A DNA stretch of 64,000 bases from Sphingomonas sp. (lineage in GTDB: Bacteria > Pseudomonadota > Alphaproteobacteria > Sphingomonadales > Sphingomonadaceae): NCBI GenBank assembly GCA_035776635.1, contig DASTWI010000020.1, positions 3,483 through 67,482 of the forward strand, given 5' to 3'. Within the stretch, counting starts at the first letter, position 1. Each line of letters starts with the position of its first letter. The notes beneath the pieces are model-generated. The model saw only the letters and a program-made list of their open reading frames with translations. It did no database searches and was not told the origin of the DNA. A program made the translations under genes and the position numbers. Shown piece by piece: positions 22,942 through 45,848 of this stretch.

Positions 22942-22948
22942 AGTTCCT

Positions 22949-23343: not shown

Positions 23344-23428
23344 GCGCGGTCGGCGCGTCGTCGTTGACGACGCGTTAACCTTTGCGAGCTTAGCTTTCCC
23401 TCACGTTGTTGCGTTGAGGAGTAAGGCG

Positions 23429-23764: not shown

Positions 23765-23768
23765 TAGG

Positions 23769-25536: not shown

Positions 25537-25672
25537 TCCAGATGCTTTGTCAGAAGGGGGTGAGCAAAGCCTTACCATGGCGATCCCTGAAGTGGGCGAT
25601 CCGGCGGTCAGATTGTGCCCATGTTCGGTTCTGGGTAACGTCCGCTCGAGGCTTGGGAGGAGGTCCGGCAGC

Positions 25673-26203: not shown

Positions 26204-26225
26204 TCCGGAGCGGTCTTGGTGCCCT

Positions 26226-26315
<90 letters not shown>

Positions 26316-26409
26316 GACCTGCGGCGCATAAGCGGCAAGCGGCATTTTGTGCAAGGGGCGCGTCCGCAAGGGGTTCATCCCGCGGCCTTGCTGTGGCACT
26401 GTCCCCGGC

Positions 26410-27459
26410 ATGTGGGGCGTACCGACACAAGCGAAGCGATTTCTGACACTCAGCGCCGGCGTCCTCGCCTGCGCATTGACCGGCGGTTCCGCCGCGGCGC
26501 AGACCGAGGACGGGTTCCAGGCCTATCTGCCGAACCTGCGCGCCAAGGCCGAGGCGGCCGGCGTGTCGCCGCGGACGATCGCCAGCGTGTTCCCGACGCT
26601 GACGATGAGCGACCGCGTGATCGAGCTCGACCGCGATCAGCCCGGCGGCAATCCCAACGCGCCGATCCCGATGTTCGCGCCGTACAAGGCCAGGCACGTC
26701 GATGCCGCGCGGATCAGCCGCGGCCGCGCCGCCTATCAGGCCAACCGCGCCAAGCTCGCGCGGATCGAGGACGAGACCGGGGTTCCCGAATCGATCATGG
26801 TGTCGATCTGGGGGCACGAGACCAATTACGGCGGCTACACCGGCAATTTCGACCTGCCCAATTCACTGGCAACGCTCGCTTACGAAGGGCGCCGGCGCGA
26901 CCTGTTCGAGAAGGAATTCGTCGCCGCGCTCAAGATTATGGACAAGGGCGTGTCGCGCGACACGCTGCAGGGAAGCTGGGCGGGCGCGACCGGCGGGCCG
27001 CAATTCCTGCCGTCGGTCTATCTGCGCCTCGCGCGCGACGGCGACGGCGACGGCCGCGCCGACATCTGGCATTCGGACGCCGACACGCTCGCGTCGATCG
27101 CCAATTATTTCGTCAACGCCGGTTGGCGGAAGGGACAGCCGTGGGGCTTCGCCGTCTCGGTGCCGTCGAGCATCAATGCCGACGCGATGCCGGGCCGCAC
27201 CGTCTCGCCGCGCTGCCCGCGGGTCTATGCGCGGCACAGCACATGGAAGACGATGGCCGAATGGCGCGCGCTGGGACTGGTCCCGCTCGACCGCAGCTGG
27301 CCCGCGAACAGTCAGATGCTGGCGACGCTGCTCCAGCCCGACGGGCCGGGACGGACCGCCTATCTGTTGACCGGAAATTATCGGGTCATCCTCGATTACA
27401 ATTGCTCGAACTTCTATGCATTGTCGGTGGGGCTGTTGGCGGATGCGGTATCGCAATAG
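26410..27459 (+). CDS. mltB: Lytic murein transglycosylase (MltB/SLT_2 family)
   Basis: IWGHETNYG (catalytic Glu), GSWAGATGGPQFLPS, DGDGDGRAD EF-hand, YNCSNFYALSV. Confidence 0.9.
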   Translation: MWGVPTQAKRFLTLSAGVLACALTGGSAAAQTEDGFQAYLPNLRAKAEAAGVSPRTIASVFPTLTMSDRVIELDRDQPGGNPNAPIPMFAPYKARHVDAARISRGRAAYQANRAKLARIEDETGVPESIMVSIWGHETNYGGYTGNFDLPNSLATLAYEGRRRDLFEKEFVAALKIMDKGVSRDTLQGSWAGATGGPQFLPSVYLRLARDGDGDGRADIWHSDADTLASIANYFVNAGWRKGQPWGFAVSVPSSINADAMPGRTVSPRCPRVYARHSTWKTMAEWRALGLVPLDRSWPANSQMLATLLQPDGPGRTAYLLTGNYRVILDYNCSNFYALSVGLLADAVSQ

Positions 27460-28342
27460 GGCGCTCGGGGCGCTGATCGCAGTGGGAATGCTGGCGAGCG
27501 GCGCGGCGGCGCAGCAGCACGGCGCCGGCGTGCCGTCGGTACCGACGCCGGGCGACGCGATCCCGCCGCCCGACCTGCCGGTCGCCAAGGGTCCCAGCGG
27601 CACGTCGAACGACGCCGCCGCGGCGCGCTACGACCGCGTCGGCTATGCCGCGATCGACGCGGGCCTGCATGGCGTCAGCGCGGCAAGCGGCGCGCTGCCC
27701 GCGGGCGCCTATGCCGAAGTGACCGCGCTCGACAGCGGCAAGATCGTGCTGACCCGCGTCGCCATCGGCGCGCCGCCGGCGGGGCGGCTCGCGGCGCTCT
27801 CGCCCGATGCCGCGCGGCTGCTCGGGGTGGCCGCCGCCAAGCCCGCCGCGATCCGCATCCGCGAGGTCGCGCCGCAAGCCGCCGACGAGGCGGCGCTGAC
27901 CCGCGGCCAGCCCGCCGCTCCGCGGCTCGACGCGCCGCCGATCCTGCTCAACGGCCTGCGCGCGCGGCTCGCCGCGGTGGCGACGCCGCCCGCAGCGGCC
28001 GCAGCTCCGCCGCCGCCGGCTGCTGCGAAGGCGCCCGCTGCCGCCAAGCCTGTGCCAGCGCCCGCGCCCAAGCCTATGGCCGCTCCCGCCAAGGCGCCGC
28101 CCGTCAAGGCCGCGCCGGCGAAGCCCGCCGCCGCCACCGGCCGCTACCGCGTCCAGGTCGCGACCTTCTCCAGCCAGGCTAACGCGAAAACGCTCGCCGC
28201 GCGAATCGACGGGCATGTCGTCCCGGCCGGTCGCTACTGGCGCGTCGAGCTCGGCCCGTTCGCCGATGCCGCCACCGCGCAACGCGCGCGTGACGGCGCC
28301 GCCAAGCGCGGCTATGGCGATGCTCGCGTCCGCAAGGACTGA
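27443..28342 (+). CDS. RlpA-like protein: degenerate DPBB domain, Ala/Pro linker, C-terminal SPOR domain
   Basis: YDRVGYA...AEVTALDSGK...LSPDAARLLG; C-terminal YRVQVATFSS...WRVELGPF; sits between mltB and dacA. Confidence 0.8.
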   Translation: MRYRNRALGALIAVGMLASGAAAQQHGAGVPSVPTPGDAIPPPDLPVAKGPSGTSNDAAAARYDRVGYAAIDAGLHGVSAASGALPAGAYAEVTALDSGKIVLTRVAIGAPPAGRLAALSPDAARLLGVAAAKPAAIRIREVAPQAADEAALTRGQPAAPRLDAPPILLNGLRARLAAVATPPAAAAAPPPPAAAKAPAAAKPVPAPAPKPMAAPAKAPPVKAAPAKPAAATGRYRVQVATFSSQANAKTLAARIDGHVVPAGRYWRVELGPFADAATAQRARDGAAKRGYGDARVRKD

Positions 28343-28379
28343 ACCTCACCCTCCAGCGTAACGGAAACCAAGAGTCCCG

Positions 28380-29534
28380 ATGAAAGCCTTGATCGCCGCA
28401 CCGGCCGCCATAATCCTTCTGTCGACCCCGACCATGGCGGAGGCGCCGCCCTTCGACACCCCGGCGACGGTAGCGTTCATGAAGGACTTGTCGTCGGGCG
28501 CGGTGCTCTATGCCAAGAACCCCGACCAGCGCGTCCCCCCGGCGTCGCTCGCCAAGACGATGACCGTCTATGTCGTGTTCGACATGATCAAGCATGGCGA
28601 CGTCAAGCTCGACCAGATGATCACCTTCCGGCCCGACACCTGGAAGAAATGGCACAGCCAGGGTTCGACGATGTTCATCTCGCCCAACGAGAGCATCAGC
28701 GTCGCCAACCTGCTCTACGGCATCATCACCTTGTCGGGGAACGACGCCTGCGTCGATCTCGCCGAGGGCGTGTCGGGCACCGAGGCCGCGTTCGTCCAGC
28801 GGATGAACGCCGAGGCGAAGAAGCTCGGCATGACCAACAGCCATTTCGGCACCTCGAACGGCTGGCCGGACGAGGGCGTCACCTATGTCACCGCGCGCGA
28901 CATGGTGACGCTGGCGACCGCGACGATCCAGAATTTCCCGAAACTCTACAAGCAGTTCTACGCCAAGCCCGACTTCACCTGGGGCCAGACGATGGGCGGC
29001 GAGGCGATCACGCAGGAGAATCGCGACCCGCTACTCGGCCGCGTCGCCGGGGCGGACGGGCTCAAGACCGGCCATACCGAGGAATCGGGCTACAGCGTGG
29101 TCGGCTCGGCCGAGCAGGACGGCCGCCGCCTCGTCATGATGATGAGCGGGATGCAGAGCTTCAACCAGCGGATCGAGCAGTCGGTCGCGTTCATGAACTG
29201 GGGCTTCCGCGCGTGGCAGGCGCGGCCGATCGTCGCCAAGGGCAAGCTGGTCGAGAAGGCTGCGGTGCAGGGCGGCGATTCGTCGACCGTGGCGCTGGTC
29301 GCGCCCGAGGACATCAAGGTGACGGTGCCCTCCGGTTCGTCGCCCGACATGCAGATCAAGGTGGTCTATCAGGGCCCGATCCAGGCGCCGATCAAGGCGG
29401 GCGACCACGTCGCCGACCTCGTCGTCACCACGCCGGATACCGGCGCGCAGACCATGCCGCTGGTCGCCGCGAACGACGTCGGCAAGGCCGGCTTCTTCCG
29501 CCGCGCGTGGAACGGCCTGCTGTCGCTGCTGTGA
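28380..29534 (+). CDS. dacA: D-alanyl-D-alanine carboxypeptidase
   Basis: SLAK (SxxK), SGN and KTG motifs; signal peptide. Confidence 0.93.
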   Translation: MKALIAAPAAIILLSTPTMAEAPPFDTPATVAFMKDLSSGAVLYAKNPDQRVPPASLAKTMTVYVVFDMIKHGDVKLDQMITFRPDTWKKWHSQGSTMFISPNESISVANLLYGIITLSGNDACVDLAEGVSGTEAAFVQRMNAEAKKLGMTNSHFGTSNGWPDEGVTYVTARDMVTLATATIQNFPKLYKQFYAKPDFTWGQTMGGEAITQENRDPLLGRVAGADGLKTGHTEESGYSVVGSAEQDGRRLVMMMSGMQSFNQRIEQSVAFMNWGFRAWQARPIVAKGKLVEKAAVQGGDSSTVALVAPEDIKVTVPSGSSPDMQIKVVYQGPIQAPIKAGDHVADLVVTTPDTGAQTMPLVAANDVGKAGFFRRAWNGLLSLL

Positions 29535-30160
29535 GCCGCGGCCGCTTCATCTCGCTCGAGGGCGGGGAGGGGGCCGGCAAGTCCACGCAGGCGACACGGC
29601 TGGCCGAGGCGCTGGCCGCACGCGGCATCGAGACGCTGGTGACGCGCGAGCCCGGCGGCAGCGAGGGCGCCGAGGCGATCCGGTCGCTCCTCATGCAGGG
29701 AGCCGTGACGCGGTGGAGCGCGCATAGCGAGGCGCTGCTGTTCGCCGCGGCGCGCGCGGATCATGTCGAAAAGCGCATCAGCCCCGCGCTCGGCGCCGGC
29801 CTGTGGGTGATCTCCGATCGCTTTATCGATTCGAGCCGCGCCTATCAGGGCCTCGCCGGCGGGATCGACGACGCCGCGATCCTCGCGCTGCACGGCTTCG
29901 GCTCGCGCGGCCTGCTCCCCGACCGCACCTTCGTCCTCGAAGTGCCGCACGACGAGGGCGCGGCGCGCGCGACCGGGCGCGACGGCGCCGCCGCCGACCG
30001 CTTCGCCGCGCGGGGGGAGGGGTTCCACGCCGACGTCGCCGCAGCCTTCCGCCGCTTCGCCGCCGACGAGCCCGACCGCATCCGCCTGATCGACGCAACC
30101 GGCACGCCCGAGGCCGTCACCATGCGCCTGCTCACCGGCCTCGCCGACCTGCTGCCATGA
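29531..30160 (+). CDS. tmk: Thymidylate kinase
   Basis: FISLEGGEGAGKST, TREPGG and DRFIDSSRAYQG motifs. Confidence 0.96.
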   Translation: MSRGRFISLEGGEGAGKSTQATRLAEALAARGIETLVTREPGGSEGAEAIRSLLMQGAVTRWSAHSEALLFAAARADHVEKRISPALGAGLWVISDRFIDSSRAYQGLAGGIDDAAILALHGFGSRGLLPDRTFVLEVPHDEGAARATGRDGAAADRFAARGEGFHADVAAAFRRFAADEPDRIRLIDATGTPEAVTMRLLTGLADLLP

Positions 30161-31227
30161 CGCCACTCGTCGGCAACGCCCGCGCGCAGCAGACCTTTCT
30201 CGCCGCGATGCATAGCGGCGCGCTCCACCACGCCTGGCTGTTCGCCGGCCCGCAAGGCGTGGGGAAGGGCGCCTTCGCCCGCTTGGCGGCGATGCGGATG
30301 CTGGCGGAAGCCGCCGGCGATCTCCCCCCTTCGTCACCCCGGCCCCCGAGCCGGGGTGAGGCTTCTTCTTTTTCTTTAGAGGAAGAAGGCAGCCCAACCC
30401 CGGGTCAAGCCCGGGGTGACGAGGTAGGAACTCTCGAAGTCCCCGAAGGCACCCGAACCCGCTCCCTCATCGAAGCCGGCTCACACCCCGATTACCGCGT
30501 GCTCGGGCGCTTGCCCAAGGATCCCGACAAGCCCGGCGAGGATCTCGCCCGCTCGATCCCGATCGCGCAGGTCCGCAGCCTGCAGCCGCTGTTCGCGACC
30601 ACGCCGTCGCTGTCGCCGCGCCGCGTCGTCATCATCGACGCGATCGACGACCTCGAGCGCGCCGCCGCCAATGCGCTCCTTAAGAACCTCGAGGAGCCGC
30701 CCGCCGGCACCATCTTCCTGCTCGTCAGCCACGCGCCCGGCCGCCTGCTGCCGACGATCCGCTCGCGCTGCCGTATCCTGCGCTTCGAGCCGCTGCCGGC
30801 GGACGTGCTGGCCGACGAGCTCGCCCGCCGCCTGCCCGACGCCCCGCGCGAGGAGATCGCCGCGGTCGTCGCCAGCGCCAAGGGCTCGCTCGGCCGCGCG
30901 CTCGATTTCGCCGGCCTCGACATCTCCGGCCTCGAAAAGGCGCTGCACACCATCGCGGCCACCGGCGACCCGACCAACGCCGAACGCTCTGCCCTCGCGA
31001 AGAGCCTCGCCCTCAAGGCCCAGCAACACCGCTACGAAGCCTTCCTCGACCGCGCCCCCGCCTTCATCGCCGAAGCCGCAACGACGCGGGCAGGGGAGGC
31101 CCTGCGCACCGCCCTCGACGCCCACGAAGCCGCCCGCGCGCTGGCGGCAAGCGCCCGCGGCCTGTCGCTCGACCAGCGGGCGAGCGTGTATGAGATGGCG
31201 GGGCTGGTGGCGCGGTTGAGCCGCTAG
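30157..31227 (+). CDS. holB: DNA polymerase III subunit delta-prime with an in-frame repeat-derived insertion
   Basis: HHAWLFAGPQGVGK, GSHPD, NALLKNLEEPP, LLPTIRSRC; lies between tmk and metG. Confidence 0.93.
   Translation: MTPLVGNARAQQTFLAAMHSGALHHAWLFAGPQGVGKGAFARLAAMRMLAEAAGDLPPSSPRPPSRGEASSFSLEEEGSPTPGQARGDEVGTLEVPEGTRTRSLIEAGSHPDYRVLGRLPKDPDKPGEDLARSIPIAQVRSLQPLFATTPSLSPRRVVIIDAIDDLERAAANALLKNLEEPPAGTIFLLVSHAPGRLLPTIRSRCRILRFEPLPADVLADELARRLPDAPREEIAAVVASAKGSLGRALDFAGLDISGLEKALHTIAATGDPTNAERSALAKSLALKAQQHRYEAFLDRAPAFIAEAATTRAGEALRTALDAHEAARALAASARGLSLDQRASVYEMAGLVARLSR
30331..30422. repeat. 92-bp palindromic element (TCGTCACCCCGG...CCGGGGTGACGA) inside holB
   Basis: 12-bp perfect terminal inverted repeats, two GC hairpins and an AT-rich centre. 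Confidence 0.85.
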
Positions 31228-31230
31228 AGC

Positions 31231-31611
31231 TTAGCGCCAGTCATCAGTGTAATCTCGGACTGGGTTGAGACGCTCGGTTAGGCGAGCAATCCCATTTTGT
31301 AGGTCATATGACTGACTTTGGAGCTGCTGAACCTGCTGTTCCAGCAATTGAGCACGCCGTTCAGTAATTAGTGCGAAGGTATGTGTCTCGAATAAAGCTT
31401 TTTCGGTGGACCACTGAATGACACCGGACAAACTGAAAATTACTATGGCTAATGCGACGTGAGAACCTGTCATGCCAAACCAGATGAGGCATGGAAGGAA
31501 CGGTAGTCCGGAAAACAGAGAGGCTCTGCGCACCCATTTCCGGTCTTCTTTGCGGTCCCTAATGATGGCGCTAGCGTTGATGTCGCCGTCGACTGACCCC
31601 CACTCGTCCAT
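31231..31611 (-). CDS. Low-GC hypothetical protein (two hydrophobic segments, C-terminal coiled coil)
   Basis: 126-aa ORF filling the gap between holB and metG; GGAG ribosome-binding site; 25/60 GC at 31381-31440. Confidence 0.65.
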   Translation of the reverse strand: MDEWGSVDGDINASAIIRDRKEDRKWVRRASLFSGLPFLPCLIWFGMTGSHVALAIVIFSLSGVIQWSTEKALFETHTFALITERRAQLLEQQVQQLQSQSYDLQNGIARLTERLNPVRDYTDDWR

Positions 31612-31742
31612 GCTTCATCTCCATATCGGGTTCCCGGTCTAGTGGGAGCTTGGTTTCTATCCCGTTAGCTCGGCATATTGCATTTAGAATGTTCTCGTCT
31701 CGTCCCCTTTGCCCCCGCCCATCAATCGGCTAACAGCCGCGC

Positions 31743-33302
31743 ATGGCCGAGCCCTATTACATCACCACCGCGATCAATTATCCCAATGGCCGCCCGCATA
31801 TCGGCCATGCCTATGAGGCGATCGCCGCCGACGCGATCGCGCGCTTTCACCGCCAGGCGGGGCGTGACGTGCGCTTCCAGACCGGCACCGACGAGCACGG
31901 CCTCAAGATGGTCCAGACCGCGCGCGCCCGCGGCGTCGAGGTGCGCGCGCTCGCCGACGAAATGTCGGGATATTTTCAGGAGATGGCGGCGAAACTGAAC
32001 ATCTTGTACGATCGCTTCATCCGCACCGTCGAGCCCGATCACCACGCCGCCAGCCGGGCGCTGTGGAAAGCGATGGAGGTCGCCGGCGACCTTTATCTCG
32101 ATCGCTACGAGGGCTGGTATTCGGTTCGCGACGAGGCGTTCTACGATGAGAAGGAACTGGTCGACGGGGAAGGGGGCAAGCTCTCGCCCAACGGCACGCC
32201 GGTCGAATGGACCGCCGAGGAAACCTGGTTCTTCGGCCTCTCGAAATACCAGCAGAAGCTGCTCGACCATTACGCCGCCCACCCCGAGTTCATCCAGCCC
32301 GAGAGCCGCCGCAACGAGATCCTCCGCTTCGTCGAGGGCGGCCTGTCGGACCTCTCGGTCTCGCGCACCAGCTTCGATTGGGGCGTCAAGGTGCCGGGCA
32401 GCGACGGCCACGTCATGTACGTCTGGGTCGATGCGCTGACCAATTACATCACCGGCCTCGGCTATCCCGATACGAGCGGCGATTTCGCGCGCTGGTGGCC
32501 CGCCGACCTCCATTTGATCGGCAAGGACATCGTCCGCTTCCACAGCGTCTATTGGCCCGCGTTCCTGATGTCGGCGGGGCTGGCGCTGCCCAAGGCAGTC
32601 TTCGGCCACGGCTTCGTCCTCAACCGCGGCGAGAAGATGTCGAAATCGACCGGCAACATCGTCGATCCGATCGAGCTCGCCGACCGCTTCGGCGTCGATG
32701 CGCTGCGCTATTTCCTGTTGCGCGACATCAGCTTCGGGCAGGATGGCAGCTTCTCGGCCGAAGCGATTGTAACACGAGCCAATTCCGATCTCGCCAACAG
32801 CTTCGGCAATCTCGCCCAGCGCACGCTGACGCAGATCTTCAAGAATCTCGGCGGCGGCCTGCCCGAAATCCACGGCCACAACGACGCCGACAACGCGCTG
32901 TTCGATGTGGTTTGCAAGGCCGTGGAGACAACCATCCCGCAAGCCTATGCCGATCTCGCGCTCAGCCAGGCGACCGAGGCGTGGGTGCAGGCGGTGTTCG
33001 CGTGCAACGCCTATATCGACGAGCAGGCGCCCTGGGCGCTGCGCAAGACCGACCCCGAGCGGATGGAGACGGTGCTGGCGACGCTCTATATTGCGATCGC
33101 GATGTTGGCCGTGGCGATCCGCCCGGTGATCCCGGCGAGCGCCGACACGCTGCTCGATACGATGGGCGTCGCGCCGGAACTGCGCAGTTTCGAGGGCATC
33201 GTCAGCCACTGGTATTCGCCGCTCGCCGAAAGCGACTTCACGCTCGCCCAGCCGACGCCGCTGTTCCCGCGGCTCGAACTGCCCGAGGAGGCCGCCGCCT
33301 GA
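31743..33302 (+). CDS. metG: Methionine--tRNA ligase (short form)
   Basis: YPNGRPHIGH, TGTDEHG, YVWVDAL and KMSKS motifs. Confidence 0.97.
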   Translation: MAEPYYITTAINYPNGRPHIGHAYEAIAADAIARFHRQAGRDVRFQTGTDEHGLKMVQTARARGVEVRALADEMSGYFQEMAAKLNILYDRFIRTVEPDHHAASRALWKAMEVAGDLYLDRYEGWYSVRDEAFYDEKELVDGEGGKLSPNGTPVEWTAEETWFFGLSKYQQKLLDHYAAHPEFIQPESRRNEILRFVEGGLSDLSVSRTSFDWGVKVPGSDGHVMYVWVDALTNYITGLGYPDTSGDFARWWPADLHLIGKDIVRFHSVYWPAFLMSAGLALPKAVFGHGFVLNRGEKMSKSTGNIVDPIELADRFGVDALRYFLLRDISFGQDGSFSAEAIVTRANSDLANSFGNLAQRTLTQIFKNLGGGLPEIHGHNDADNALFDVVCKAVETTIPQAYADLALSQATEAWVQAVFACNAYIDEQAPWALRKTDPERMETVLATLYIAIAMLAVAIRPVIPASADTLLDTMGVAPELRSFEGIVSHWYSPLAESDFTLAQPTPLFPRLELPEEAAA

Positions 33303-34081
33303 TGCTTGCCGACAGCCATTGCCATCTCAATTACAAAGGGTTGGCTGAAGAACAGCAAGCGGTGCTCGAACGCGCCCGGGCCCGCGGCGTGACGGCGATG
33401 CTCAACATCTCGACCCGCGAGAGCGAGTGGAACGACGTCCTCGCCACCGCGACGCGCGAGCCCGACGTGTGGGCCACCGTCGGCATTCACCCGCACGAGG
33501 CCGACCAGCATCCGCATGTCGATACCGCCAAGCTCGTCGAACGCGCGCGGCACCCGCGCGTCGTCGGCATCGGCGAAAGCGGGCTCGATTATTATTACGA
33601 CCATAGCGACCGCGCCCGCCAGCAGGCGAGCTTCCGCGCGCACATCGCCGCCGCGCGCGAGACCGGCCTGCCGCTCGTCGTCCACACTCGCGACGCCGAG
33701 GAAGACACCGCCGCGATCCTCAGCGACGAAATGGGGAAGGGGGCCTATCCGGGCGTCATCCACTGTTTCACCGCGAGCCAGGCGTTCGCCGACATCGCGC
33801 TCGATCTCGGCTTCTACATCTCGATCTCGGGCATCGTCACGTTCAAGAACGCCAAGGACCTGCAGGCGACCGCGGCCCAGCTCCCGATCGAGCGCCTGTT
33901 GATCGAGACCGACGCGCCCTTCCTCGCGCCCGTGCCGCATCGCGGCAAGACCGGCGAGCCGAGCTTCGTCGCCGACACCGCGGCGTTCCTCGCCGATCTC
34001 CGCGGCGAAGAAGTCGAGCAACTGAAGGACGTTACGGCGCGAAACTTCCACGCGCTCTTCGCCAAAACGGCGGCTGCGTGA
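33302..34081 (+). CDS. tatD: TatD family hydrolase
   Basis: DSHCH, GIHPH, IGESGLDY, VHTR and IETDAPFLAP motifs. Confidence 0.95.
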   Translation: MLADSHCHLNYKGLAEEQQAVLERARARGVTAMLNISTRESEWNDVLATATREPDVWATVGIHPHEADQHPHVDTAKLVERARHPRVVGIGESGLDYYYDHSDRARQQASFRAHIAAARETGLPLVVHTRDAEEDTAAILSDEMGKGAYPGVIHCFTASQAFADIALDLGFYISISGIVTFKNAKDLQATAAQLPIERLLIETDAPFLAPVPHRGKTGEPSFVADTAAFLADLRGEEVEQLKDVTARNFHALFAKTAAA

Positions 34082-34842
34082 AGGTCCGCATCCTCGGCTC
34101 GGGAACCTCGTCGGGGGTGCCGCGGATCGGCAACGATTGGGGCGCGTGCGATCCGAACGAGCCGCGGAACCGCCGCACCCGCGTGTCGATCCTGGTCGAG
34201 ACCGCGACGACGCGCATCCTGGTCGACACCACTCCCGACATGCGCGAGCAGCTGCTTGCGGCCAACGTCTCGGACGTCGATGCGGTCATCTGGACCCACG
34301 ACCATGCCGACCATTGCCACGGCATCGACGACCTTCGCCAAATCTATCACCTGCGCGGCGCCCCGGTGCGCGGCTTCGCCCGGCCAGACACGCTGGCGGC
34401 GCTGGTCGAGCGCTTCGCTTATGTCTTCAACGGCCGCGACGGCTATCCTTCTAGCGTCGCCGCCGAACCGCTGCCGGATATGCTGACGATCGGCGATATC
34501 CGTCTGCGTGTCGTCGATCAGCCGCACGGATCGATCACCAGCGCCGGCCTGCGCTTCGAGTCGAGTGGAAAGACGGTCGGTTATGCAACCGATTTCAGCG
34601 ACATGACCGACGATATGAAGGCGTTGTATCAAGGTTGCGACCTGTGGATCGCCGATGCGCTGCGCCGCCGCCCGCATCCGACCCATTCCACGCTCGAAGA
34701 CGTGCTCGGCTGGGCCGGGGAGCTCGCGGTCGGCCATAGCGTGCTGATCCACATGGACAATTCGATGGATTACCGGACTCTCGCGGCCGAACTGCCGCCG
34801 CGGGTCGAGCCCGGCTATGACGGACTGGAACTGGTGCCGTGA
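34078..34842 (+). CDS. MBL-fold metallohydrolase (PhnP-like)
   Basis: LGSGTSSGVP and THDHADHCHG motifs. Confidence 0.92.
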   Translation: MKVRILGSGTSSGVPRIGNDWGACDPNEPRNRRTRVSILVETATTRILVDTTPDMREQLLAANVSDVDAVIWTHDHADHCHGIDDLRQIYHLRGAPVRGFARPDTLAALVERFAYVFNGRDGYPSSVAAEPLPDMLTIGDIRLRVVDQPHGSITSAGLRFESSGKTVGYATDFSDMTDDMKALYQGCDLWIADALRRRPHPTHSTLEDVLGWAGELAVGHSVLIHMDNSMDYRTLAAELPPRVEPGYDGLELVP

Positions 34843-35459
34843 ACGACACCGGCGCCAACGCCTTGTTCCTGGCGCTGCTGCTGATCCTGCCGCTGTCGTC
34901 GTTGCTCGCACGCCGGCTGCCGCTGCGCAGCGTCGTCAAGATGACGCTCGCCTGGATCGCGATCTTCGCCGTGGCGCTGGTCGTCATCGCCGGACGGCAC
35001 CAACTCGCCGCCGGCTGGTCGGCGATCACGCGGACGATCATCGGCGACGACCAGAGCGTCACCGGCGGCACGGTGCGGATCGGCAAGGCCGACGACGGCC
35101 ATTTCTGGGCGACCGCGACGATCAATGGGGTCCGGCGGCGGATGCTGATCGACAGTGGCGCGACCTATACCGCGATTTCCAGCGGCACCGCTGCAGCCGC
35201 GCAGCTCGATCTCGGCGAAAGCCCGTTCGGATCGATCCTGTCGACTGCCAACGGCGACATCGCGGTTACGCGCGCGACGGTCGGCACGCTCGAGGTCGGC
35301 TCGATCACCACGCACGACCTGCCGGTGGTCGTCTCGCCGGCGTTCGGCGACACCGACGTGCTCGGCATGAACTTCCTGTCGCGCTTGGAAAGCTGGCGCG
35401 TCGAGGGGGACACGCTGATTCTCCAACCGGCCCCGGGCAGCGGAGTTAATTTAACATAA
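34839..35459 (+). CDS. Membrane-anchored retropepsin-like (clan AA, TIGR02281-type) aspartyl protease
   Basis: Two TM helices, DGHFW, LIDSGAT, VLGMNFL. The last codons overlap the dif site. Confidence 0.88.
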   Translation: MNDTGANALFLALLLILPLSSLLARRLPLRSVVKMTLAWIAIFAVALVVIAGRHQLAAGWSAITRTIIGDDQSVTGGTVRIGKADDGHFWATATINGVRRRMLIDSGATYTAISSGTAAAAQLDLGESPFGSILSTANGDIAVTRATVGTLEVGSITTHDLPVVVSPAFGDTDVLGMNFLSRLESWRVEGDTLILQPAPGSGVNLT

Positions 35460-35476
35460 TGTATATTATCGGACTT
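35449..35476 (-). other. dif site (XerC/XerD chromosome dimer resolution site)
   Basis: Minus strand reads AAGTCCGATAA-TATACA-TTATGTTAAAT. The right arm is identical to the E. coli XerD arm TTATGTTAAAT; 11-6-11 geometry. Confidence 0.92.
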
Positions 35477-35484: not shown

Positions 35485-36261
35485 ATGAATCCGGAGCCCC
35501 CCTGCCGCCCGATCGATCGCCTTCTGGCCGTCATGGCGCGGCTGCGCGATCCGATGCGCGGCTGCGAATGGGACACGGTCCAGACCTTCGCGACGATCGC
35601 GCCGTACACGATCGAAGAAGCTTATGAGGTCGCCGACGCGATCCAGCGTGACGACATGGCCGAGCTCAAGGATGAGCTCGGCGATCTGCTGCTCCAGGTC
35701 GTGTTCCACGCCCGCATGGCCGAGGAATCGGGGCTGTTCGGCTTCGACGACGTCGCCACCGCGATCGCCGACAAGATGGAGCGCCGCCACCCGCACATCT
35801 TCGGCGATCGCGCCGAGGGCGGCCATCATCTGTGGGAGCAGATCAAGGCCGAGGAGCGCGCCGCCAGGGGCAAGCCGGACGCGCCGACAAGCGCGCTCGA
35901 CGGCGTCGCGCTCGGCCTGCCGGCGCTGCTCCGCGCCGAAAAGCTCCAGAAGCGCGCCGCGCACACCGGCTTCGACTGGCCCGACCCATCCGGCGCGCGC
36001 GCCAAGATCGACGAAGAGCTCGCCGAAGTGGAGACCGCCGCCACCGCAGCCGAACGCGAGGAGGAAATCGGCGACCTGCTGTTCGCCGTGGTCAACTGGG
36101 CGCGCAAGCTCGGCATCGATCCCGAAGCCGCGCTGCGCGCCGCCAACACCAAATTCGAACGCCGCTTCCGCGCGATGGAGCAGACTGCCGGCGACGCTTT
36201 CGCCGCGCTCGACCTCGACGCCAAGGAGGCGCTGTGGGTCAGCGCGAAGAAGGGCGGATAG
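35485..36261 (+). CDS. mazG: Nucleoside triphosphate pyrophosphohydrolase MazG
   Basis: LRDP..GCEWD, IEEAYEV, ELGDLLLQVVFH and EEIGDLLF motifs. Confidence 0.95.
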   Translation: MNPEPPCRPIDRLLAVMARLRDPMRGCEWDTVQTFATIAPYTIEEAYEVADAIQRDDMAELKDELGDLLLQVVFHARMAEESGLFGFDDVATAIADKMERRHPHIFGDRAEGGHHLWEQIKAEERAARGKPDAPTSALDGVALGLPALLRAEKLQKRAAHTGFDWPDPSGARAKIDEELAEVETAATAAEREEEIGDLLFAVVNWARKLGIDPEAALRAANTKFERRFRAMEQTAGDAFAALDLDAKEALWVSAKKGG

Positions 36262-36371: not shown

Positions 36372-37670
36372 CTACGACCCCGCAAACCGGGTCGCGAAGC
36401 GCTCGTAATCCGCGGGCGCCATCCGCACTTCGTAGACCGTCCGGTCGCCCTCGACCTCCTGCTCCAGCACTGCGCCATGCTGGTGCAGCCATGCCGCGCC
36501 GGCGCCGTCGGCGGGGTCGAGCGCGATGCGATAGCGGCGGTGGCCGGCGGTGAGCTTCGCCGCGACCTGGTCAAGCAGGCGATCGACCCCCTCCCCGGTC
36601 AGCGCCGACACCGCGACGACGTCATCGCGCCGCGCGGCTTCGGCGATCACCTCGGCGCGCCGCTCGGGTTCGAGCAGGTCGAGCTTGTTCCACGCCTCGA
36701 TCCGCGGCGTGGTCTCCTCGACGCCGATCTCGCCGAGCACCGCCTCGACATCGGCGCGCTGCGCCTCGCTGTCGGGATGCGCGATGTCGCGGACGTGGAT
36801 CAGGAGGTCGGCCGAGACCACCTCCTCCAGCGTCGCCTTGAACGCGGCGACGAGCTGGGTCGGCAGCTCGGAGACGAACCCCACCGTGTCGGACAGGATC
36901 GCCTTGTCGATGCCGGGCAGCGAAATCTGCCGCAGCGTCGGGTCGAGTGTTGCGAACAGCAAATCTTCCGCCATGACGTCGGCGCCGGTCAAGCGGTTGA
37001 ACAGCGTCGATTTTCCGGCATTGGTATAGCCGACCAGCGCGATTACCGGCCACGGCGCGCGCTGCCGCCGCTCGCGGTGCAGCCCGCGCGTGCGCTTGAC
37101 CTGGTCGAGTTCGCGCCTCAGCCGCGCCATGCGGTCGCGGATCAGCCGGCGGTCGGCCTCGATCTGCGTCTCGCCGGGGCCGCCGAGAAAGCCGAAGCCG
37201 CCGCGCTGGCGTTCAAGGTGCGTCCAGCTCCGTACCAGCCGCCCCGCCTGATAGTCGAGGTGCGCGAGCTCGACCTGCAGCCGCCCCTCGGCGGTCGCGG
37301 CGCGTTCGCCGAAGATCTCGAGGATCAGTCCGGTGCGGTCGATCACCTTGGCTTCGAGCGCGGTTTCGAGGTTGCGCTGCTGCACCGGCGTCAGCGCGGC
37401 GTCGAATACGACCAGCCCCGCCTCCTCCATCCGCACGTTGGCGGCGAGCGCCTCGACCTGGCCCGAGCCGATCAGCGTCGCCGGCTTGGGATTGCGCACG
37501 CGGAGCGCGACGGTGTCGGCGACGACCACGCCGATCGCCGCGGCCAGCCCGGCGGTCTCCTCGAGCCGCGCGTCGGCGTCGCGGCGCGACTCGCCCTGGT
37601 CGGGATAGACGACGATCGCGCGAGCGCCGCGCGCGAATTCGCCGCGGTCGCGTTCGAACCCTGTGCTCAA
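36372..37670 (-). CDS. hflX: GTPase HflX
   Basis: [36 protein letters not shown] and NKLD motifs. Confidence 0.97.
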
Positions 37671-38158
37671 TCCGCGTCCGAACCCGCTGTTTCGTCAGCC
37701 AGATTCAGCGGATGCGCCGGCTGGATCGTCGATACCGCATGCTTGTAGACCAGTTGCGACAGTCCTTCGCGCTGCAGCAGCATACAAAACAGGTCGAACG
37801 CGGCGATCTGGCCCTGCAGCATTACCCCGTTGACCAGGAACATGGTGACGTTGTCGTCCGACTTGCGCACCGCATTCAGGAAGATTTCCTGGAGCAGCGG
37901 CTGTTTCTTGCCCGGCTCGCCCATCTGGTCGACGATCGGACTGACGTCGATCGACCCCGACGGCATGATCGTCGAGATCGCGTGCTTGTAGATCAGCTGC
38001 GACTGCCCGTCGCGGCGCAGCAGCACCGAGAAATTGTCGAACCAGGTGACGATTCCCTGCAATTTCACGCCCTTGACGAGGAACATCGTCACCGGCGTCT
38101 TCGATTTGCGCAGCGCATTGAGGAACAGGTCCTGGAGCGAGGTCTGCTTGTCGGCCAT
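37667..38158 (-). CDS. hfq: RNA chaperone Hfq with two tandem Sm domains
   Basis: LQDLFLN...IYKHAISTI followed by LQEIFLN...VYKHAVSTI; 163 aa; directly upstream of hflX. Confidence 0.96.
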
Positions 38159-38319
38159 GCGTGATAACCTTGTTCTTGGCGGGTCATGAGCCCGCATTGC
38201 GCCGGTTCCCGGCGTCGGAAGGGCGCGCATCGTGCGCGCACGCCAGCAATTTAGGGCTGAAGGGGGCCGGCGTCCATATGGCGTTAGCGCGTAGGGGCTA
38301 TTCGTTCGCGCACGTCCCT

Positions 38320-38388
38320 CCGTTCGCCCTGAGCGTGTCGAAGGCGATTTCCCCCGCGCATCGCTTCGACTTCGCTCAGCACGAACGG
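38320..38388. repeat. REP-like element, family B
   Basis: CCGTTCGCCCTGAGCGTGTCGAAG...CTTCGACTTCGCTCAGCACGAACGG. Confidence 0.8.
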
Positions 38389-38404
38389 AGTATTGCGAAA
38401 GCCC

Positions 38405-39781
38405 CTACTCTTCCCCGCGCGTGTCGGTGATGCCGAGCAGCTTCAGCTTGCGGTGCAGCGCCGACCGCTCCATCCCGATGAAGCTCGCAGTGCGCGAGAT
38501 GTTGCCCGAAAAGCGGCGGATCTGCACCCGCAGATACTCCCGCTCGAACGTCTCGCGAGCCTCGCGCAGCGGCGCGCCCATGATCGCGCTGGTCCCCGCC
38601 CCGTTCTCGCCCTGCTGGCCGAGCACCTCGGCGGGGAGCAGGTCGAGATCGATCCGCCCGATGCGATCGCCGGGCGCCAGGATCACCGTCCGCTCGACCA
38701 CGTTGCGCAGCTGGCGGACGTTGCCCGGCCAGTCGTAGGACTGCAGCGCGACCATCGCGTCGGGCGCCACCTCGGGGGTCGGCACGCGGCGCTCGGCGGC
38801 GTAATGCGCGACGAAATGCCCGACCAGCGGCGGAATGTCCTCGCGGCGCTGCGACAGCGGCGGGATCTCCACCGGCACGACGTTGAGCCGGTAATAGAGG
38901 TCCTCGCGGAACCGCCCCTCGGCGATCTCGGCGGTGAGGTCGCGCGCGGTCGCCGAGACGACCCGGACGTCGACCTTCACCGTCCGCTGCCCGCCGATCC
39001 GCGTGAAGCTCTGGTCGGTCAGCACGCGCAGGATCCGCGCTTGCGTCGCGACCGGCATGTCGGCGATCTCGTCGAGGAACAAGGTCCCGCCGTGCGCCTG
39101 TTCGAGCAGGCCGGGCCGGACGAGGTCGCCCCCCTCCTCCACCCCGAACAATTCCTCCTCGACGCGCTCGGGCGTCATCCGCGCGGCGCTGACGATCACG
39201 AACGGCGCGCCCGCGCGCTGGCTCCAGCCATGGAGCAGCCGTGCGGCGACTTCCTTGCCGACCCCCGCCGGTCCCATCACCATCACCCGGCTGCCGGTCG
39301 AGGCGACGCGCTTCAGCGTCGCGCGCACCCCGTTGATCGCCCCCGACGAGCCGGTGAGGTCGGTGTCGCGCCCCGCGCTCTGCCTGAGCGATTCGACCTC
39401 GCGCTTCAGCCGCTCGGTCTCGGTCGCGCGCGCGACCATCAGCAGCAGCCGCTCGGCCTCGAACGGTTTCTCGATGAAGTCCGCCGCGCCGCGCCGGATC
39501 GCCGCCACCGCGGTGTCGAGATTGCCGTGGCCCGAGATCACCAGCACCGGGATCGAGGCATCGCGCCGCTTGATCTCGTCGAGCAGGTCGAGCCCGTCGA
39601 GCCGCGACCCCTGCAACCACACGTCGAGCAGCACCAGGCTGGGCCGCCGTGCGGCGATCGCCTCCAGCGCAGCATCGCTGTCGGCGGCGGCGCGCGTCTC
39701 ATAGCCTTCGTCCTCGAGCACGCCCCCCACCAGTTCGCGGATGTCGAGTTCGTCGTCGACGACAAGGATGTCGAGCGCCAT
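38405..39781 (-). CDS. ntrX: Response regulator NtrX
   Basis: Receiver + AAA+ domain lacking GAFTGA + HTH (MERSALHRKLK); follows ntrY. Confidence 0.93.
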   Translation of the reverse strand: MALDILVVDDELDIRELVGGVLEDEGYETRAAADSDAALEAIAARRPSLVLLDVWLQGSRLDGLDLLDEIKRRDASIPVLVISGHGNLDTAVAAIRRGAADFIEKPFEAERLLLMVARATETERLKREVESLRQSAGRDTDLTGSSGAINGVRATLKRVASTGSRVMVMGPAGVGKEVAARLLHGWSQRAGAPFVIVSAARMTPERVEEELFGVEEGGDLVRPGLLEQAHGGTLFLDEIADMPVATQARILRVLTDQSFTRIGGQRTVKVDVRVVSATARDLTAEIAEGRFREDLYYRLNVVPVEIPPLSQRREDIPPLVGHFVAHYAAERRVPTPEVAPDAMVALQSYDWPGNVRQLRNVVERTVILAPGDRIGRIDLDLLPAEVLGQQGENGAGTSAIMGAPLREARETFEREYLRVQIRRFSGNISRTASFIGMERSALHRKLKLLGITDTRGEE

Positions 39782-39784
39782 GGG

Positions 39785-42016
39785 TCAGCTGTTCCGGGTT
39801 CGAGTAAGTGCAGGAAGCGGAGCATCGTCCGCGGGGGTATCGCCGCTGCCGTCGAGGCCGGCGAGCATCTTGGCGTCGAAGCGCATCGCGATGATCGTGC
39901 CGCCGCCGGGCCGATCGGCGAAGGTAATCTCGCCGAAATGCTCCTCGGCGATCTTCTTGACGATGGCGAGGCCCAGACCGGTGCCCCGCGCGCGAGTCGT
40001 GACATAGGGCTCGACCAGCCGGTTGCGTTCGCTGGGCAGGCCGACACCATCGTCCTCGACGGTGATCGTGGTCGTGCCGTCATGCTCGGCGAGCATCATC
40101 GTCACCTCGCCGTGCGCATCCTCGCCTTTCGCCTCGATCGCCTCGACCGCATTCTTGACAAGGTTGGTGAGCGCCTGCCCGATCTGCCGGCGGTCGCAGA
40201 CCAGCATCGGGGGCGGCTCGTCATACTCGAGCCGGAAGCGCACATTGGGATGCGCCACTTCGTGGAGGAACAGCGCCTGACGTCCGATATCGACCAGCGA
40301 TTCCTCGCGGAACACCGGCTTGGGCATCCGCGCGAACGAGGAGAATTCGTCGACCATCCGGCGCAAGTCGCCGACCTGCCGCACGATCGTGTCGGTCAGG
40401 CGGTTGAAGGTCGCGTCCTGCCCGTCGAATTGCTTGCCGTAGCGGCGCTGGAGCCGCTCGGCGGCGAGCTGGATCGGGGTCAGCGGGTTCTTGATCTCGT
40501 GCGCAATCCGCCGCGCGACGTCGGACCAGGCGGCGCGGCGCTGGTCGAGCAGCTGCTGGGTGATATCGTCGAAGGTCAGCACCTGCCCTTCGGCATCGCC
40601 GGTGATCTTGACCGCGAGCGTCTTGGGCTGGCTGTCGCCGGCGACCTGGACGATCGCCTCGCGCGTGTCGCTGTCGAGCAGCGCGTCGAGCTCGGGCGCA
40701 ACCGCCGCCAGCGGCCGCCCGACCGGATCGCCGCCTCCGGTGTTGAGCAACGCCGCCGCCGAGCTGTTGACCAGCTGGATCGTCCGATCGGCGTCGATCG
40801 AGATGACCCCCGCGCTCACTCCCGACATCACCGCCTCGATCAGCGCGCGGCGGTTCTCCAGCGCATTGGTCTGCGCCTCGAGCGTGCTCGTCATCCGGTT
40901 GAAGGCCAGCGCGAGCGTGCCGATCTCGTCGTCGCGACTCGGCGGTGAGACGCGCGCGGCAAGGTCGCCCTCCTCGATTCGCTGCGCCGCGCCGACCAGC
41001 TCGCTGAGCGGGCGGACCAGGCGATCCGCCACCAGCAGCGCAATCCAGACGGCGATGCCGACGATCAGCAGCGATACGAGCAGCAACGCCGTGTTGAACT
41101 TGATCTGCAGCGATCGCGACCGCGCAAGCAGCGAGCGATAGTCCTTGAGCACCGCATCCGCCCGTCGTGTCTGCGCGCGCATCAGCTTCACGTTGATGAC
41201 CCGCGCCGCGTACAGGTAGAGATTGTCCTCGCCCGGGACCTTGGCGATCGTCTCGATGCGATCGGAGGTGACCTTCTGAACCGCTGGAGAACCGGCATTC
41301 AGGCTGGCGATGACTTTGGGGTCGATCTGGTTGAGCGGATTGATTCCATAAGGATTCATCACGTCGAGGCGGGGATTCTCCAGCGCGAGGTTGCGCACCT
41401 CGTTGCCCGGACCGACCGAGAACAGAATCCCTTCCGAAAGGCTGCGGTAATAGATCTGCTGGCCAAAGAAGGCGGGAAACTGCGGATCGTCCATCGGCGC
41501 TTCGTTCAGGAATCCGGAGATGTCGTGCGCGGCGGTGATCGTCGCCTGCCGCCATCTGTCGAGCATCTGGTCGTACGAAATGCGCGCCAGCGTCGTCGTG
41601 TTTTCGAGCATCCCGCGCGCGCGATCGGAAAACCAGAACTCGACGCCGTACTGAAACAGCAACGACGCAAAGATCGTGACCAGCAGCATCGGAACCGCGG
41701 CAGTCACCGAAAACAGCGCGACGAGCCGGACGTGCAGCCTGCCGCCGCCGAAATGCGACTTCGCCGCCCGCCGGATCGCGATCCGGCGCCCCACCAGCAC
41801 CAGCAGCGCGATTTCGGGCGCGAGATTGGCGACGAGCAACAGCGCGACCAGCGGCGGCGTCAACAGCCGCTGCGTTTCGTGACCGCTGGCGATGATGAAA
41901 TAGCTCGCGACGGCAACGCCGATCACGGTGGCGAGGACCAGGAGTTCGACCAGCGGCGTGACGGTGAACCACCGCCTGCCGATTCCCGGCCGGATCGCCT
42001 CAACCTTGCCCGTCAT
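39785..42016 (-). CDS. ntrY: Sensor histidine kinase NtrY
   Basis: TM helices, WF motif, [27 protein letters not shown]. Confidence 0.93.
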   Translation of the reverse strand: MTGKVEAIRPGIGRRWFTVTPLVELLVLATVIGVAVASYFIIASGHETQRLLTPPLVALLLVANLAPEIALLVLVGRRIAIRRAAKSHFGGGRLHVRLVALFSVTAAVPMLLVTIFASLLFQYGVEFWFSDRARGMLENTTTLARISYDQMLDRWRQATITAAHDISGFLNEAPMDDPQFPAFFGQQIYYRSLSEGILFSVGPGNEVRNLALENPRLDVMNPYGINPLNQIDPKVIASLNAGSPAVQKVTSDRIETIAKVPGEDNLYLYAARVINVKLMRAQTRRADAVLKDYRSLLARSRSLQIKFNTALLLVSLLIVGIAVWIALLVADRLVRPLSELVGAAQRIEEGDLAARVSPPSRDDEIGTLALAFNRMTSTLEAQTNALENRRALIEAVMSGVSAGVISIDADRTIQLVNSSAAALLNTGGGDPVGRPLAAVAPELDALLDSDTREAIVQVAGDSQPKTLAVKITGDAEGQVLTFDDITQQLLDQRRAAWSDVARRIAHEIKNPLTPIQLAAERLQRRYGKQFDGQDATFNRLTDTIVRQVGDLRRMVDEFSSFARMPKPVFREESLVDIGRQALFLHEVAHPNVRFRLEYDEPPPMLVCDRRQIGQALTNLVKNAVEAIEAKGEDAHGEVTMMLAEHDGTTTITVEDDGVGLPSERNRLVEPYVTTRARGTGLGLAIVKKIAEEHFGEITFADRPGGGTIIAMRFDAKMLAGLDGSGDTPADDAPLPALTRTRNS

Positions 42017-42104
42017 CGTTGCGTCGATACAACGGCCGCGTTGCAGGGAAAACACAATAATGCTGCGGCCCGGCGCTGGCGGACCTCATCCTGTCGCGCG
42101 CGAT

Positions 42105-43522
<1,418 letters not shown>

Positions 43523-43526
<4 letters not shown>

Positions 43527-45584: not shown

Positions 45585-45588
45585 AATG

Positions 45589-45605
45589 TGCCTGAAAATT
45601 GGGCA
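45589..45605. promoter_or_regulatory. Putative NtrC/Fis-type binding site just upstream of dusB-ntrBC
   Basis: TGCCTGAAAATTGGGCA: 17-bp TGC-N11-GCA dyad with an AT core, 4 nt before the dusB ATG. Confidence 0.55.
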
Positions 45606-45660
45606 GCCCTCTACGCGAGACAAGCCCAATGCGCAAGGCTGGCCGCGCGGGCTCCCCCTT

Positions 45661-45840: not shown

Positions 45841-45848
45841 CTGTGGAA

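What the first reader, a model, noticed from the sequence alone, without database searches (positions are those of the whole stretch)
35449..35476. Chromosomal dif site whose XerD arm doubles as the last codons of a protease gene
Seen: ATTTAACATAA-TGTATA-TTATCGGACTT. The XerD arm matches E. coli dif exactly. On the plus strand it supplies most of AAT TTA ACA TAA (N-L-T-stop) of the aspartyl protease, and the mazG ATG follows 8 nt after the site. Known: dif is the single XerCD site at the terminus and an integration target for IMEX elements. Inference: the site is under dual coding constraint, no IMEX is integrated here, and crossover at dif would leave both flanking genes intact.
Basis: partly seen in the sequence, partly recalled or inferred. 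Interest (0 to 1): 0.65.

Follow-up and report, generated by a model that had tools for sequence, protein, structure and literature searches.

The report
Ordinary chromosomal dif site, Sphingomonas
This 28-base sequence is the genuine, single site where the XerC/XerD enzymes untangle joined sister chromosomes at the replication terminus of a Sphingomonas; its overlap with the end of a protease gene is real but incidental, so the finding is correct and mostly ordinary.

Summary
The 28-mer ATTTAACATAA-TGTATA-TTATCGGACTT is at window 35449-35476 exactly as described. Its XerD arm is identical to that of E. coli dif. It is 21% G+C in a 68% G+C genome and is unique: it scores 53 bits on a genus matrix and the next best site scores 18. 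It lies inside the 2.9-kb interval where the FtsK-guiding motif GGGNAGGG switches strand (12/12 on + to the left, 17/19 on - to the right, p = 6e-7). This is the only strong convergent switch in the draft genome. In a closed relative the homologous site lies at the same switch, roughly opposite the divergent (origin) switch. The genome encodes XerD, XerC and an FtsK with a gamma domain. No second dif-like site exists, so no IMEX is integrated.

The protease stop codon does lie in the XerD arm, but "dual coding constraint" is not supported. The last conserved protease residue is P197, and the tails after it are 2-18 unconserved residues. Among 78 species with the protease-dif junction, the stop lies inside, abuts or precedes the site.

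One mildly new point: protease-dif-mazG is a fixed context across many Sphingomonadaceae genera, inside a tightly packed co-directional gene cluster. Published surveys report no specific genetic environment for dif.

Verdict: a real dif, a new member of a known kind, of low interest.

The parts
35449..35476 (.). dif, the 28-bp XerCD chromosome-dimer resolution site (11-6-11 layout)
   Evidence: PWM score 53 bits against 18 for the next best site in the genome; 21% G+C against 68% for the window.
35449..35459 (.). XerD-binding arm ATTTAACATAA (reverse complement of TTATGTTAAAT)
   Evidence: Identical to the E. coli K12 XerD arm (PMC2731167 Table 1). Positions 6-11 are invariant in 78 species.
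35460..35465 (.). central hexamer TGTATA (TATACA when read from the XerC arm to the XerD arm)
   Evidence: It varies among relatives: TGTATA, TATATA, TGCTTA and others.
35466..35476 (.). XerC-binding arm TTATCGGACTT (AAGTCCGATAA on the other strand)
   Evidence: The inner TTATC is invariant and the outer bases vary. It is the same GATAA type as the published Novosphingobium aromaticivorans dif AGGATTGATAATAATCATTATGTAAATA.
34839..35459 (+). membrane-anchored clan AA aspartic protease (TIGR02281); its last three codons and stop lie in the XerD arm
   Evidence: The domain ends at aa 196 of 206 and the tail is unconserved.
35485..36261 (+). mazG nucleoside triphosphate pyrophosphohydrolase; the start region abuts the XerC arm
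   Evidence: NF007113, 313.6 bits. The only in-frame upstream alternative start is the TTG at 35476, inside dif. The frame is closed by the TAA at 35452-35454.
31743..34842 (+). metG (31743-33302), tatD (33302-34081) and an MBL-fold hydrolase (34078-34842). Their starts and stops overlap by 1-4 nt and lead into the protease gene.
   Evidence: No promoter-like or terminator-like site on the + strand between 33092 and mazG.
36372..38230 (-). hflX (36372-37670) and hfq (37667-38230), which converge on mazG about 0.9 kb right of dif
   Evidence: terminator-like hairpin on the - strand at 36289-36268.
3954..33741 (+). twelve GGGNAGGG (KOPS-type) motifs, all on the + strand and pointing towards dif; six of them lie in 29564-33741
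36589..59739 (-). eight GGGNAGGG motifs on the - strand within the window, pointing back towards dif, with one stray + copy at 57616. On the whole contig, 17 of 19 to the right of dif are on the - strand.

Best explanation
The sequence is the one chromosomal dif site of this Sphingomonas. XerD binds the arm next to the protease gene and XerC binds the arm next to mazG. When sister chromosomes have become a dimer, septum-bound FtsK reads the oppositely oriented GGGNAGGG motifs on either side, pumps DNA until the two dif copies meet, and activates XerD through its gamma domain. Two pairs of strand exchanges across the 6-bp central region then turn the dimer into monomers. The reaction is conservative, so the flanking genes are untouched. 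The site fills the 25-nt gap between the protease and mazG genes in a co-directional, tightly packed cluster. The AT-rich XerD arm carries TAA in two frames, so it simply ends whichever protease reading frame runs into it. What is shown here is the site's identity, uniqueness, terminus position, enzyme genes and conservation. What is inferred is binding, FtsK dependence and dimer resolution.
For: The 11-6-11 layout has an XerD arm identical to E. coli's. The XerC arm is of the GATAA type published for Novosphingobium. The site is 21% G+C against 68% for the window. It is unique within 8 mismatches and by PWM (53 bits against 18). GGGNAGGG is 77% leading-strand genome-wide (330 against 101). 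On contig C20 it is 12/0 on the + strand left of the site and 2/17 to the right (Fisher p = 6.4e-7). The best change-point interval, 37216-40071, brackets the site at 38931, and C20 is the only contig with a strong convergent switch. In the closed relative G018 (3,376,213 bp) the homologous site at 603,756 lies between a 20-kb sample with 11+/0- and one with 1+/4-. The opposite switch there lies at about 2.06-2.21 Mb. The cumulative G-C maximum is 16.4 kb away, similar to the published 17.8 kb for N. aromaticivorans and 14.2 kb for C. crescentus. The XerD-like gene scores TIGR02225 261 bits and aligns over its full length to E. coli XerD 1a0p at E = 1e-47. The XerC-like gene scores TIGR02224 268 bits. 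Both keep the R..HxxR..H..Y motifs, and there is one FtsK with a gamma domain at 89.7 bits. A 28-mer of at least 37 bits follows the protease orthologue in the same orientation in 78 of 80 species.
Against: No experiment shows binding or recombination. The genome is a 71-contig draft, so a whole-genome skew curve could not be drawn, and GC skew along C20 is noisy (it turns positive again at 70-90 kb). Both Xer proteins score below the strict NCBIfam equivalog cut-offs; the XerD candidate does exceed the cut-off of the NF001399 tyrosine recombinase subfamily model (282 bits against 279). Eleven of the 28 bases lie inside a coding sequence, whereas 94-96% of predicted dif sites are non-coding.
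Confidence: 0.93

Rival explanations
1. The site is under true dual constraint: the protease needs the N-L-T tail, so the XerD arm is shaped jointly by recombinase binding and by protein function.
For: The stop codon lies at dif positions 9-11 in this genome and in 13 of 78 other species. In 47 of 78 species the stop overlaps or abuts the site.
Against: The tail lies outside the TIGR02281 domain and after the last conserved residue P197, and tails are 2-18 unconserved residues. The stop position floats from -139 to +9. The XerD-arm bases used as codons are invariant in species that do not translate them. In four relatives the whole protease domain is gone while dif stays in place.
Confidence: 0.04
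2. It is an attachment-site remnant of an IMEX or plasmid Xer site (cer/psi-like), not the functional chromosomal dif.
For: IMEX elements integrate at dif and leave dif-like sites. Several relatives carry extra dif-core matches on other contigs, and some carry 7-24 kb of accessory DNA between dif and mazG.
Against: This genome has no second dif-like site. The flanks are housekeeping genes in the same order as in most relatives, with only 25 nt between them. The site lies exactly at the KOPS convergence. No accessory-sequence arms of the kind cer and psi need are present.
Confidence: 0.02
3. It is chiefly a transcriptional or translational control element for mazG (an AT-rich operator or promoter in a GC-rich genome) that only resembles dif.
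For: It lies 8 nt from the mazG start in an otherwise GC-rich cluster. It contains a TATATT, which resembles a -10 hexamer.
Against: The consensus promoter scan finds nothing there. The conserved positions are exactly the Xer-binding inner arms. Dif stays with the protease gene, not with mazG, in relatives where the two are separated. A regulatory side effect is not excluded, but it would add to the dif function, not replace it.
Confidence: 0.02

Closest known systems
E. coli dif / XerCD / FtsK-KOPS chromosome dimer resolution system
   Same: It has the 28-bp 11-6-11 layout, an identical XerD arm and a low G+C content. It is single-copy and lies at the convergence of GGGNAGGG motifs. Paralogous XerC and XerD genes and an FtsK gamma domain are present.
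   Different: The XerC arm differs at 7 of 11 bases (AAGTCCGATAA against GGTGCGCATAA). The central hexamer is TATACA in XerC-to-XerD reading, against TGTATA. The site is wedged between core genes of one co-directional cluster and overlaps a stop codon, whereas 94-96% of predicted dif sites lie outside coding sequence.
Predicted dif of Novosphingobium aromaticivorans DSM 12444 (Carnoy and Roten 2009, PMC2731167, Table 1)
   Same: Same order. Both have the GATAA-type XerC inner arm and a TTATGT(A/T)AA XerD arm. The distance from the skew maximum is similar (17.8 kb against 16.4 kb here).
   Different: The central region differs (TAATCA) and so do the outer arm bases. That survey scored its site as intergenic and reported no specific genetic environment for dif sites in general.
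Caulobacter crescentus dif (functionally characterised alphaproteobacterial site, cited in PMC2731167)
   Same: An alphaproteobacterial XerCD site near the skew maximum (14.2 kb).
   Different: Its XerC arm is more divergent. No evidence was gathered here on whether its gene context is related.
IMEX integration sites (CTXphi/TLCphi-type elements at Vibrio dif)
   Same: The target would be this same kind of site.
   Different: No integrated element and no flanking hybrid site are present in this genome.

Membership tests
Chromosomal XerCD dif site | 28-bp site: two 11-bp arms with inverted inner parts around a 6-bp centre | tested here: met
   ATTTAACATAA-TGTATA-TTATCGGACTT; the inner arms ATAA/TTAT are inverted.
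Chromosomal XerCD dif site | Highly conserved XerD arm (TTATGTTAAAT type) | tested here: met
   Identical to the E. coli K12 arm.
Chromosomal XerCD dif site | G+C content well below that of the chromosome | tested here: met
   21% against 68%.
Chromosomal XerCD dif site | Single copy on the chromosome | tested here: met
   No other match within 8 mismatches. PWM 53 bits against a next best of 18. The assembly is a draft of 99.98% estimated completeness.
Chromosomal XerCD dif site | Located at the replication terminus, at the convergence of FtsK-orienting polar motifs | tested here: met
   GGGNAGGG is 12+/0- to the left and 2+/17- to the right. The change-point interval brackets the site, and this is the only strong convergent switch in the genome. 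The closed relative G018 shows the same. The cumulative G-C maximum is 16.4 kb away. A whole-genome skew curve is not possible on a 71-contig draft.
Chromosomal XerCD dif site | Genome encodes XerC, XerD and an FtsK with a gamma domain | tested here: met
   The Xer proteins score best against XerD and XerC respectively, but below the equivalog cut-offs.
Chromosomal XerCD dif site | Usually outside coding sequence (94-96% of predicted sites). This is typical, not defining. | tested here: not met
   Eleven of 28 bases are the last codons and stop of the protease ORF. Published surveys already list 4-6% of sites inside ORFs.
Chromosomal XerCD dif site | Bound and recombined by XerCD in an FtsK-dependent way; loss gives a recA-dependent dimer phenotype | not testable with these tools
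   Needs EMSA, a resolution assay and a deletion mutant.
IMEX integrated at dif | Element bounded by two dif-like sites, one functional and one hybrid | tested here: not met
   There is no second site of 19 bits or more anywhere in the genome. The protease-mazG gap is 25 nt.

The most novel reading that the evidence does not exclude
Dif has stayed locked in the short gap between the protease and mazG genes across many Sphingomonadaceae genera. It appears to be transcribed as part of a metG-tatD-hydrolase-protease-mazG unit. The position itself may therefore be selected. XerCD bound at dif could act as a roadblock that ties mazG expression to the state of the terminus. Conversely, transcription and translation running into the XerD arm could clear or gate recombinase occupancy.
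Probability: 0.08. Interest if true: 0.45.

Novelty: new member of a known kind. Interest (0 to 1): 0.22.

Why it matters
The main value is annotation. The site pins the replication terminus of a draft Sphingomonas genome to within 28 bp, and it gives a family-level dif consensus: (A/G)TTT(T/A)ACATAA-T(G/A)TATA-TTATC(G/A)NNCTN. It shows that GGGNAGGG serves as the polar FtsK-type motif in this group, which helps in ordering contigs and in spotting IMEX or island insertions at the terminus. The one point beyond the textbook is the fixed gene context, protease-dif-mazG, in 59 of 78 species spanning several genera. Dif there is packed into a co-directional core-gene cluster and often supplies the stop codon. 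Published surveys state that dif has no specific genetic environment. That makes these bacteria a convenient natural system for asking whether transcription through dif matters.

Tried and rejected
- **Whole-genome cumulative GC skew.** This is not possible on 71 unordered contigs. Skew along C20 alone is noisy. I replaced it with GGGNAGGG polarity and with sampling a closed relative.
- **My own faulty search patterns.** The dif core patterns had one N too many, and those calls gave no valid dif-site hits. The error was found on reading G012 and corrected. Conclusions rest only on the corrected calls.
- **IMEX reading of the 7-24 kb inserts in G005, G007, G010 and G015.** I rejected this as stated, because no second dif-like site of 10 bits or more lies in or beside them. 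They are mostly unrelated to this genome. I did not annotate them further.
- **The TTTCCCTA strand bias (64 against 2).** This turned out to be a CRISPR array on contig C52, not an architectural motif.
- **Literature on dif next to mazG.** No paper was found.
- **Age of the junction.** Whether it extends outside Sphingomonadales, for example to Caulobacter, was not tested.

Full report
**1. Observation**

Window 35449-35476 reads ATTTAACATAA-TGTATA-TTATCGGACTT. The first 11 bases are the exact reverse complement of the XerD arm of E. coli K12 dif, GGTGCGCATAATGTATATTATGTTAAAT (PMC2731167 Table 1).

The ORF 34839-35459 is a membrane-anchored clan AA aspartic protease (TIGR02281, 96.7 bits against a cut-off of 58; PF13975). 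It ends AAT TTA ACA TAA, with the stop at 35457-35459. The mazG gene (NF007113, 313.6 bits) most likely starts at the ATG at 35485, 8 nt after the site. The only upstream in-frame alternative is the TTG at 35476, inside the XerC arm. That frame is closed by the TAA at 35452-35454.

The site is 21% G+C in a 68% G+C window. No shuffle of the window gave a match with up to 3 mismatches. Read from the XerC arm to the XerD arm, the central hexamer is TATACA, the reverse complement of the E. coli centre.

**2. Is it the chromosomal dif?**

*Uniqueness.* Nothing else in the 3.74-Mb, 71-contig draft genome matches the site or E. coli dif within 8 mismatches. A position matrix built from 16 genus sites scores this site at 53 bits and the next best place in the genome at 18 bits.

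*Enzymes.* The genome has two Xer-type tyrosine recombinases.
- The one on C54 scores best as XerD (TIGR02225, 261 bits) and aligns end to end with E. coli XerD (PDB 1a0p, E = 1e-47).
- The one on C15 scores best as XerC (TIGR02224, 268 bits).
- Both keep the R, HxxR, H and Y motifs.
- Both fall below the strict equivalog cut-offs.
- One FtsK with a gamma domain is present (PF09397, 89.7 bits).

*Terminus position.* A whole-genome skew curve cannot be drawn on unordered contigs, so I used the FtsK-orienting motif instead.
- I oriented 27 other contigs by the sign of their GC skew. GGGNAGGG is then 330 against 101 in favour of the G-rich strand, and GGGCAGGG is 120 against 24.
- On contig C20 all 12 copies left of the site are on the + strand. 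Of the 19 copies to the right, 17 are on the - strand (Fisher p = 6.4e-7).
- The best change-point interval, C20:37216-40071 (window 33734-36589), brackets the site.
- C20 is the only contig with a strong convergent switch.
- Six of the motifs lie in the 4.2 kb just left of the site (Poisson P about 1e-3).
- The cumulative G-C maximum of C20 lies 16.4 kb to the left. Published distances are 17.8 kb for Novosphingobium aromaticivorans, 14.2 kb for Caulobacter crescentus and 39.1 kb for E. coli.

*Independent check in a closed relative.* In G018 (3,376,213 bp) the homologous site is at 603,756. The 20 kb to its left have 11+/0- motifs, and the 20 kb to its right have 1+/4-. Samples from 2.21 Mb through position 0 to 603 kb are + biased. 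Samples from 604 kb to 2.06 Mb are - biased. The site is therefore at the convergent switch, and the divergent switch (the origin) lies at about 2.06-2.21 Mb, roughly opposite.

**3. Context and conservation**

The genes metG (31743-33302), tatD (33302-34081), an MBL-fold hydrolase (34078-34842) and the protease (34839-35459) overlap start to stop by 1-4 nt. The mazG gene follows after 25 nt, a gap that dif fills. The consensus scan found no promoter-like or terminator-like site between them. The hflX-hfq pair converges from the right.

That dif is transcribed as part of this cluster is an inference.

Among 23 same-genus genomes, 16 have the 28-mer directly upstream of mazG. In G005, G007, G010 and G015 the protease-dif junction is kept, but 7-24 kb of species-specific DNA separates dif from mazG. 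That DNA is partly low in G+C and holds no second dif-like site. In G012, G001, G022 and G021 only the N-terminal membrane segment of the protease remains, and dif follows it directly.

A wider scan with a protease alignment returned 80 species. Their records are labelled Sphingomonas, Hephaestia, Stakelama, Parasphingorhabdus, Sphingorhabdus, Sphingopyxis and Rhizorhapis.
- 78 carry a 28-mer of at least 37 bits just downstream of the protease gene, in the same orientation.
- 59 have mazG within 300 nt beyond it.
- Positions 6-12, 17-20 and 22 of the site are invariant.
- The consensus is (A/G)TTT(T/A)ACATAA-T(G/A)TATA-TTATC(G/A)NNCTN.

These closest relatives also identify the organism as a Sphingomonas, which agrees with earlier notes on this genome.

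**4. The 'dual coding' claim**

The TIGR02281 domain ends at residue 196 of 206. In a 12-species alignment the last invariant residue is P197. The tails after it are 2-18 residues long with no conservation.

Across the 78 species the stop codon lies as follows:

| Position of the protease stop | Species |
|---|---|
| dif positions 9-11 (as in this window) | 13 |
| dif positions 4-6 | 6 |
| overlaps the site by 1-2 nt | 9 |
| abuts the site | 19 |
| 3-12 nt upstream | 18 |
| farther upstream | 13 |

The bases that serve as codons in this genome are invariant in species that do not translate them. The XerD arm is therefore shaped by the recombinase. It contains TAA in two frames, so it ends any frame that runs into it in a genome where stop codons are otherwise rare. 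The protein tail is a by-product. Partial overlap of dif with an ORF is uncommon but already recorded: 3.7% of 161 sites in PMC2731167 and about 6% in PMC3025954.

**5. Mechanism**

Binding, cleavage and FtsK dependence are inferred from the E. coli paradigm, which rests on established knowledge and was not tested here. XerD binds the protease-side arm and XerC binds the mazG-side arm. FtsK is guided by the converging GGGNAGGG motifs. It brings the two dif copies of a dimer together at the septum and activates XerD through its gamma domain. Sequential strand exchanges across the 6-bp centre then yield monomers.

No IMEX is present. There is no second dif-like site, and the junction is the ancestral 25-nt gap.

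**6. Comparison, novelty and verdict**

All sequence-level features that define a chromosomal dif are met. The only atypical feature is the 11-nt overlap with a coding sequence, which departs from a statistical tendency and not from a defining feature.

This is a new member of a well-known kind. Dif prediction in Sphingomonadales was already published, for N. aromaticivorans.

The modestly new point is the fixed context. [quoted passage not shown] I found no paper that links dif and mazG. Yet in Sphingomonadaceae the site has stayed between the same two core genes across genera, inside a co-directional cluster. Whether that position has any regulatory meaning is open and, in my estimate, unlikely (about 8%).

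Confidence that this is the functional dif is 0.93. Interest is 0.22.

**7. Caveats**

- The genome is a draft assembly.
- Motif counts per 20-kb sample in G018 are small, although they are consistent across 20 samples.
- The matrix used on the 80 loci was built from genus sites, so very divergent sites would be missed.
- Searches used a faulty core pattern of mine and should be ignored.

Noticed in passing
window 37667-38230 (-): The Hfq here is a 187-residue tandem double Hfq with two Sm-like domains. It matches NF010691 (292 bits) over its whole length, so this type is already catalogued.
   Followed up: partly
own genome, contig C52, about 23.3-23.8 kb and onward (outside the window): A CRISPR array with the 36-nt repeat GCCGTGGTTTCCCTACCGATTTGCCGATGGTAGGCT and a 66-nt period. 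It accounts for most of the 73 TTTCCCTA hits and explains the apparent strand bias of that octamer.
   Followed up: partly
L091+L092 (G010), L093 (G007), L094 (G005), L095 (G015): In four same-genus relatives, 7-24 kb of species-specific DNA lies between dif and mazG, on the XerC-arm side. It is partly low in G+C and has no second dif-like site. The G010 insert carries a groEL paralogue. The terminus side of dif looks like an insertion hot spot.
   Followed up: partly
L026 2894-3075 (G012); also L014 (G001), L019 (G022), L025 (G021): The protease gene is reduced to its N-terminal membrane segment (about 50 residues), which again ends in the TAA of the XerD arm. The protease domain has been lost while dif stays in place.
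   Followed up: partly
G004 contigs C3, C41, C50 (about nt 115 of each), C9 and C30; also G006, G008 and G003: Several relatives have 3-6 exact matches to the dif core with different central hexamers. Three matches in G004 lie about 115 nt from contig ends. These could be plasmid or chromid dif sites, or IMEX arrays that broke the assembly.
   Followed up: no
window 29564-33741 (+): Six GGGNAGGG motifs lie within 4.2 kb immediately left of dif, against a genome mean of one per 5.5 kb. G018 has 11 in the 20 kb left of its dif. The motif is locally enriched next to dif.
   Followed up: partly
L137 (NZ_QDFQ01000001.1) and L157 (JBPBQW010000135.1): Records titled 'Arthrobacter sp. TPD3018' and 'Janthinobacterium lividum' (a MAG) carry typical Sphingomonas protease-dif-mazG loci. 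They are probably mislabelled or contaminated records.
   Followed up: no
L096 about 2826 (G032, a different family of the order): A protease homologue (29% identity) is followed by ATTTAACATAA-TTATCC-TTATACGAAAT, which has an exact XerD arm. The mazG gene lies 1.4 kb further on. The matrix score is weak (13 bits), so whether this is that genome's dif is open.
   Followed up: no
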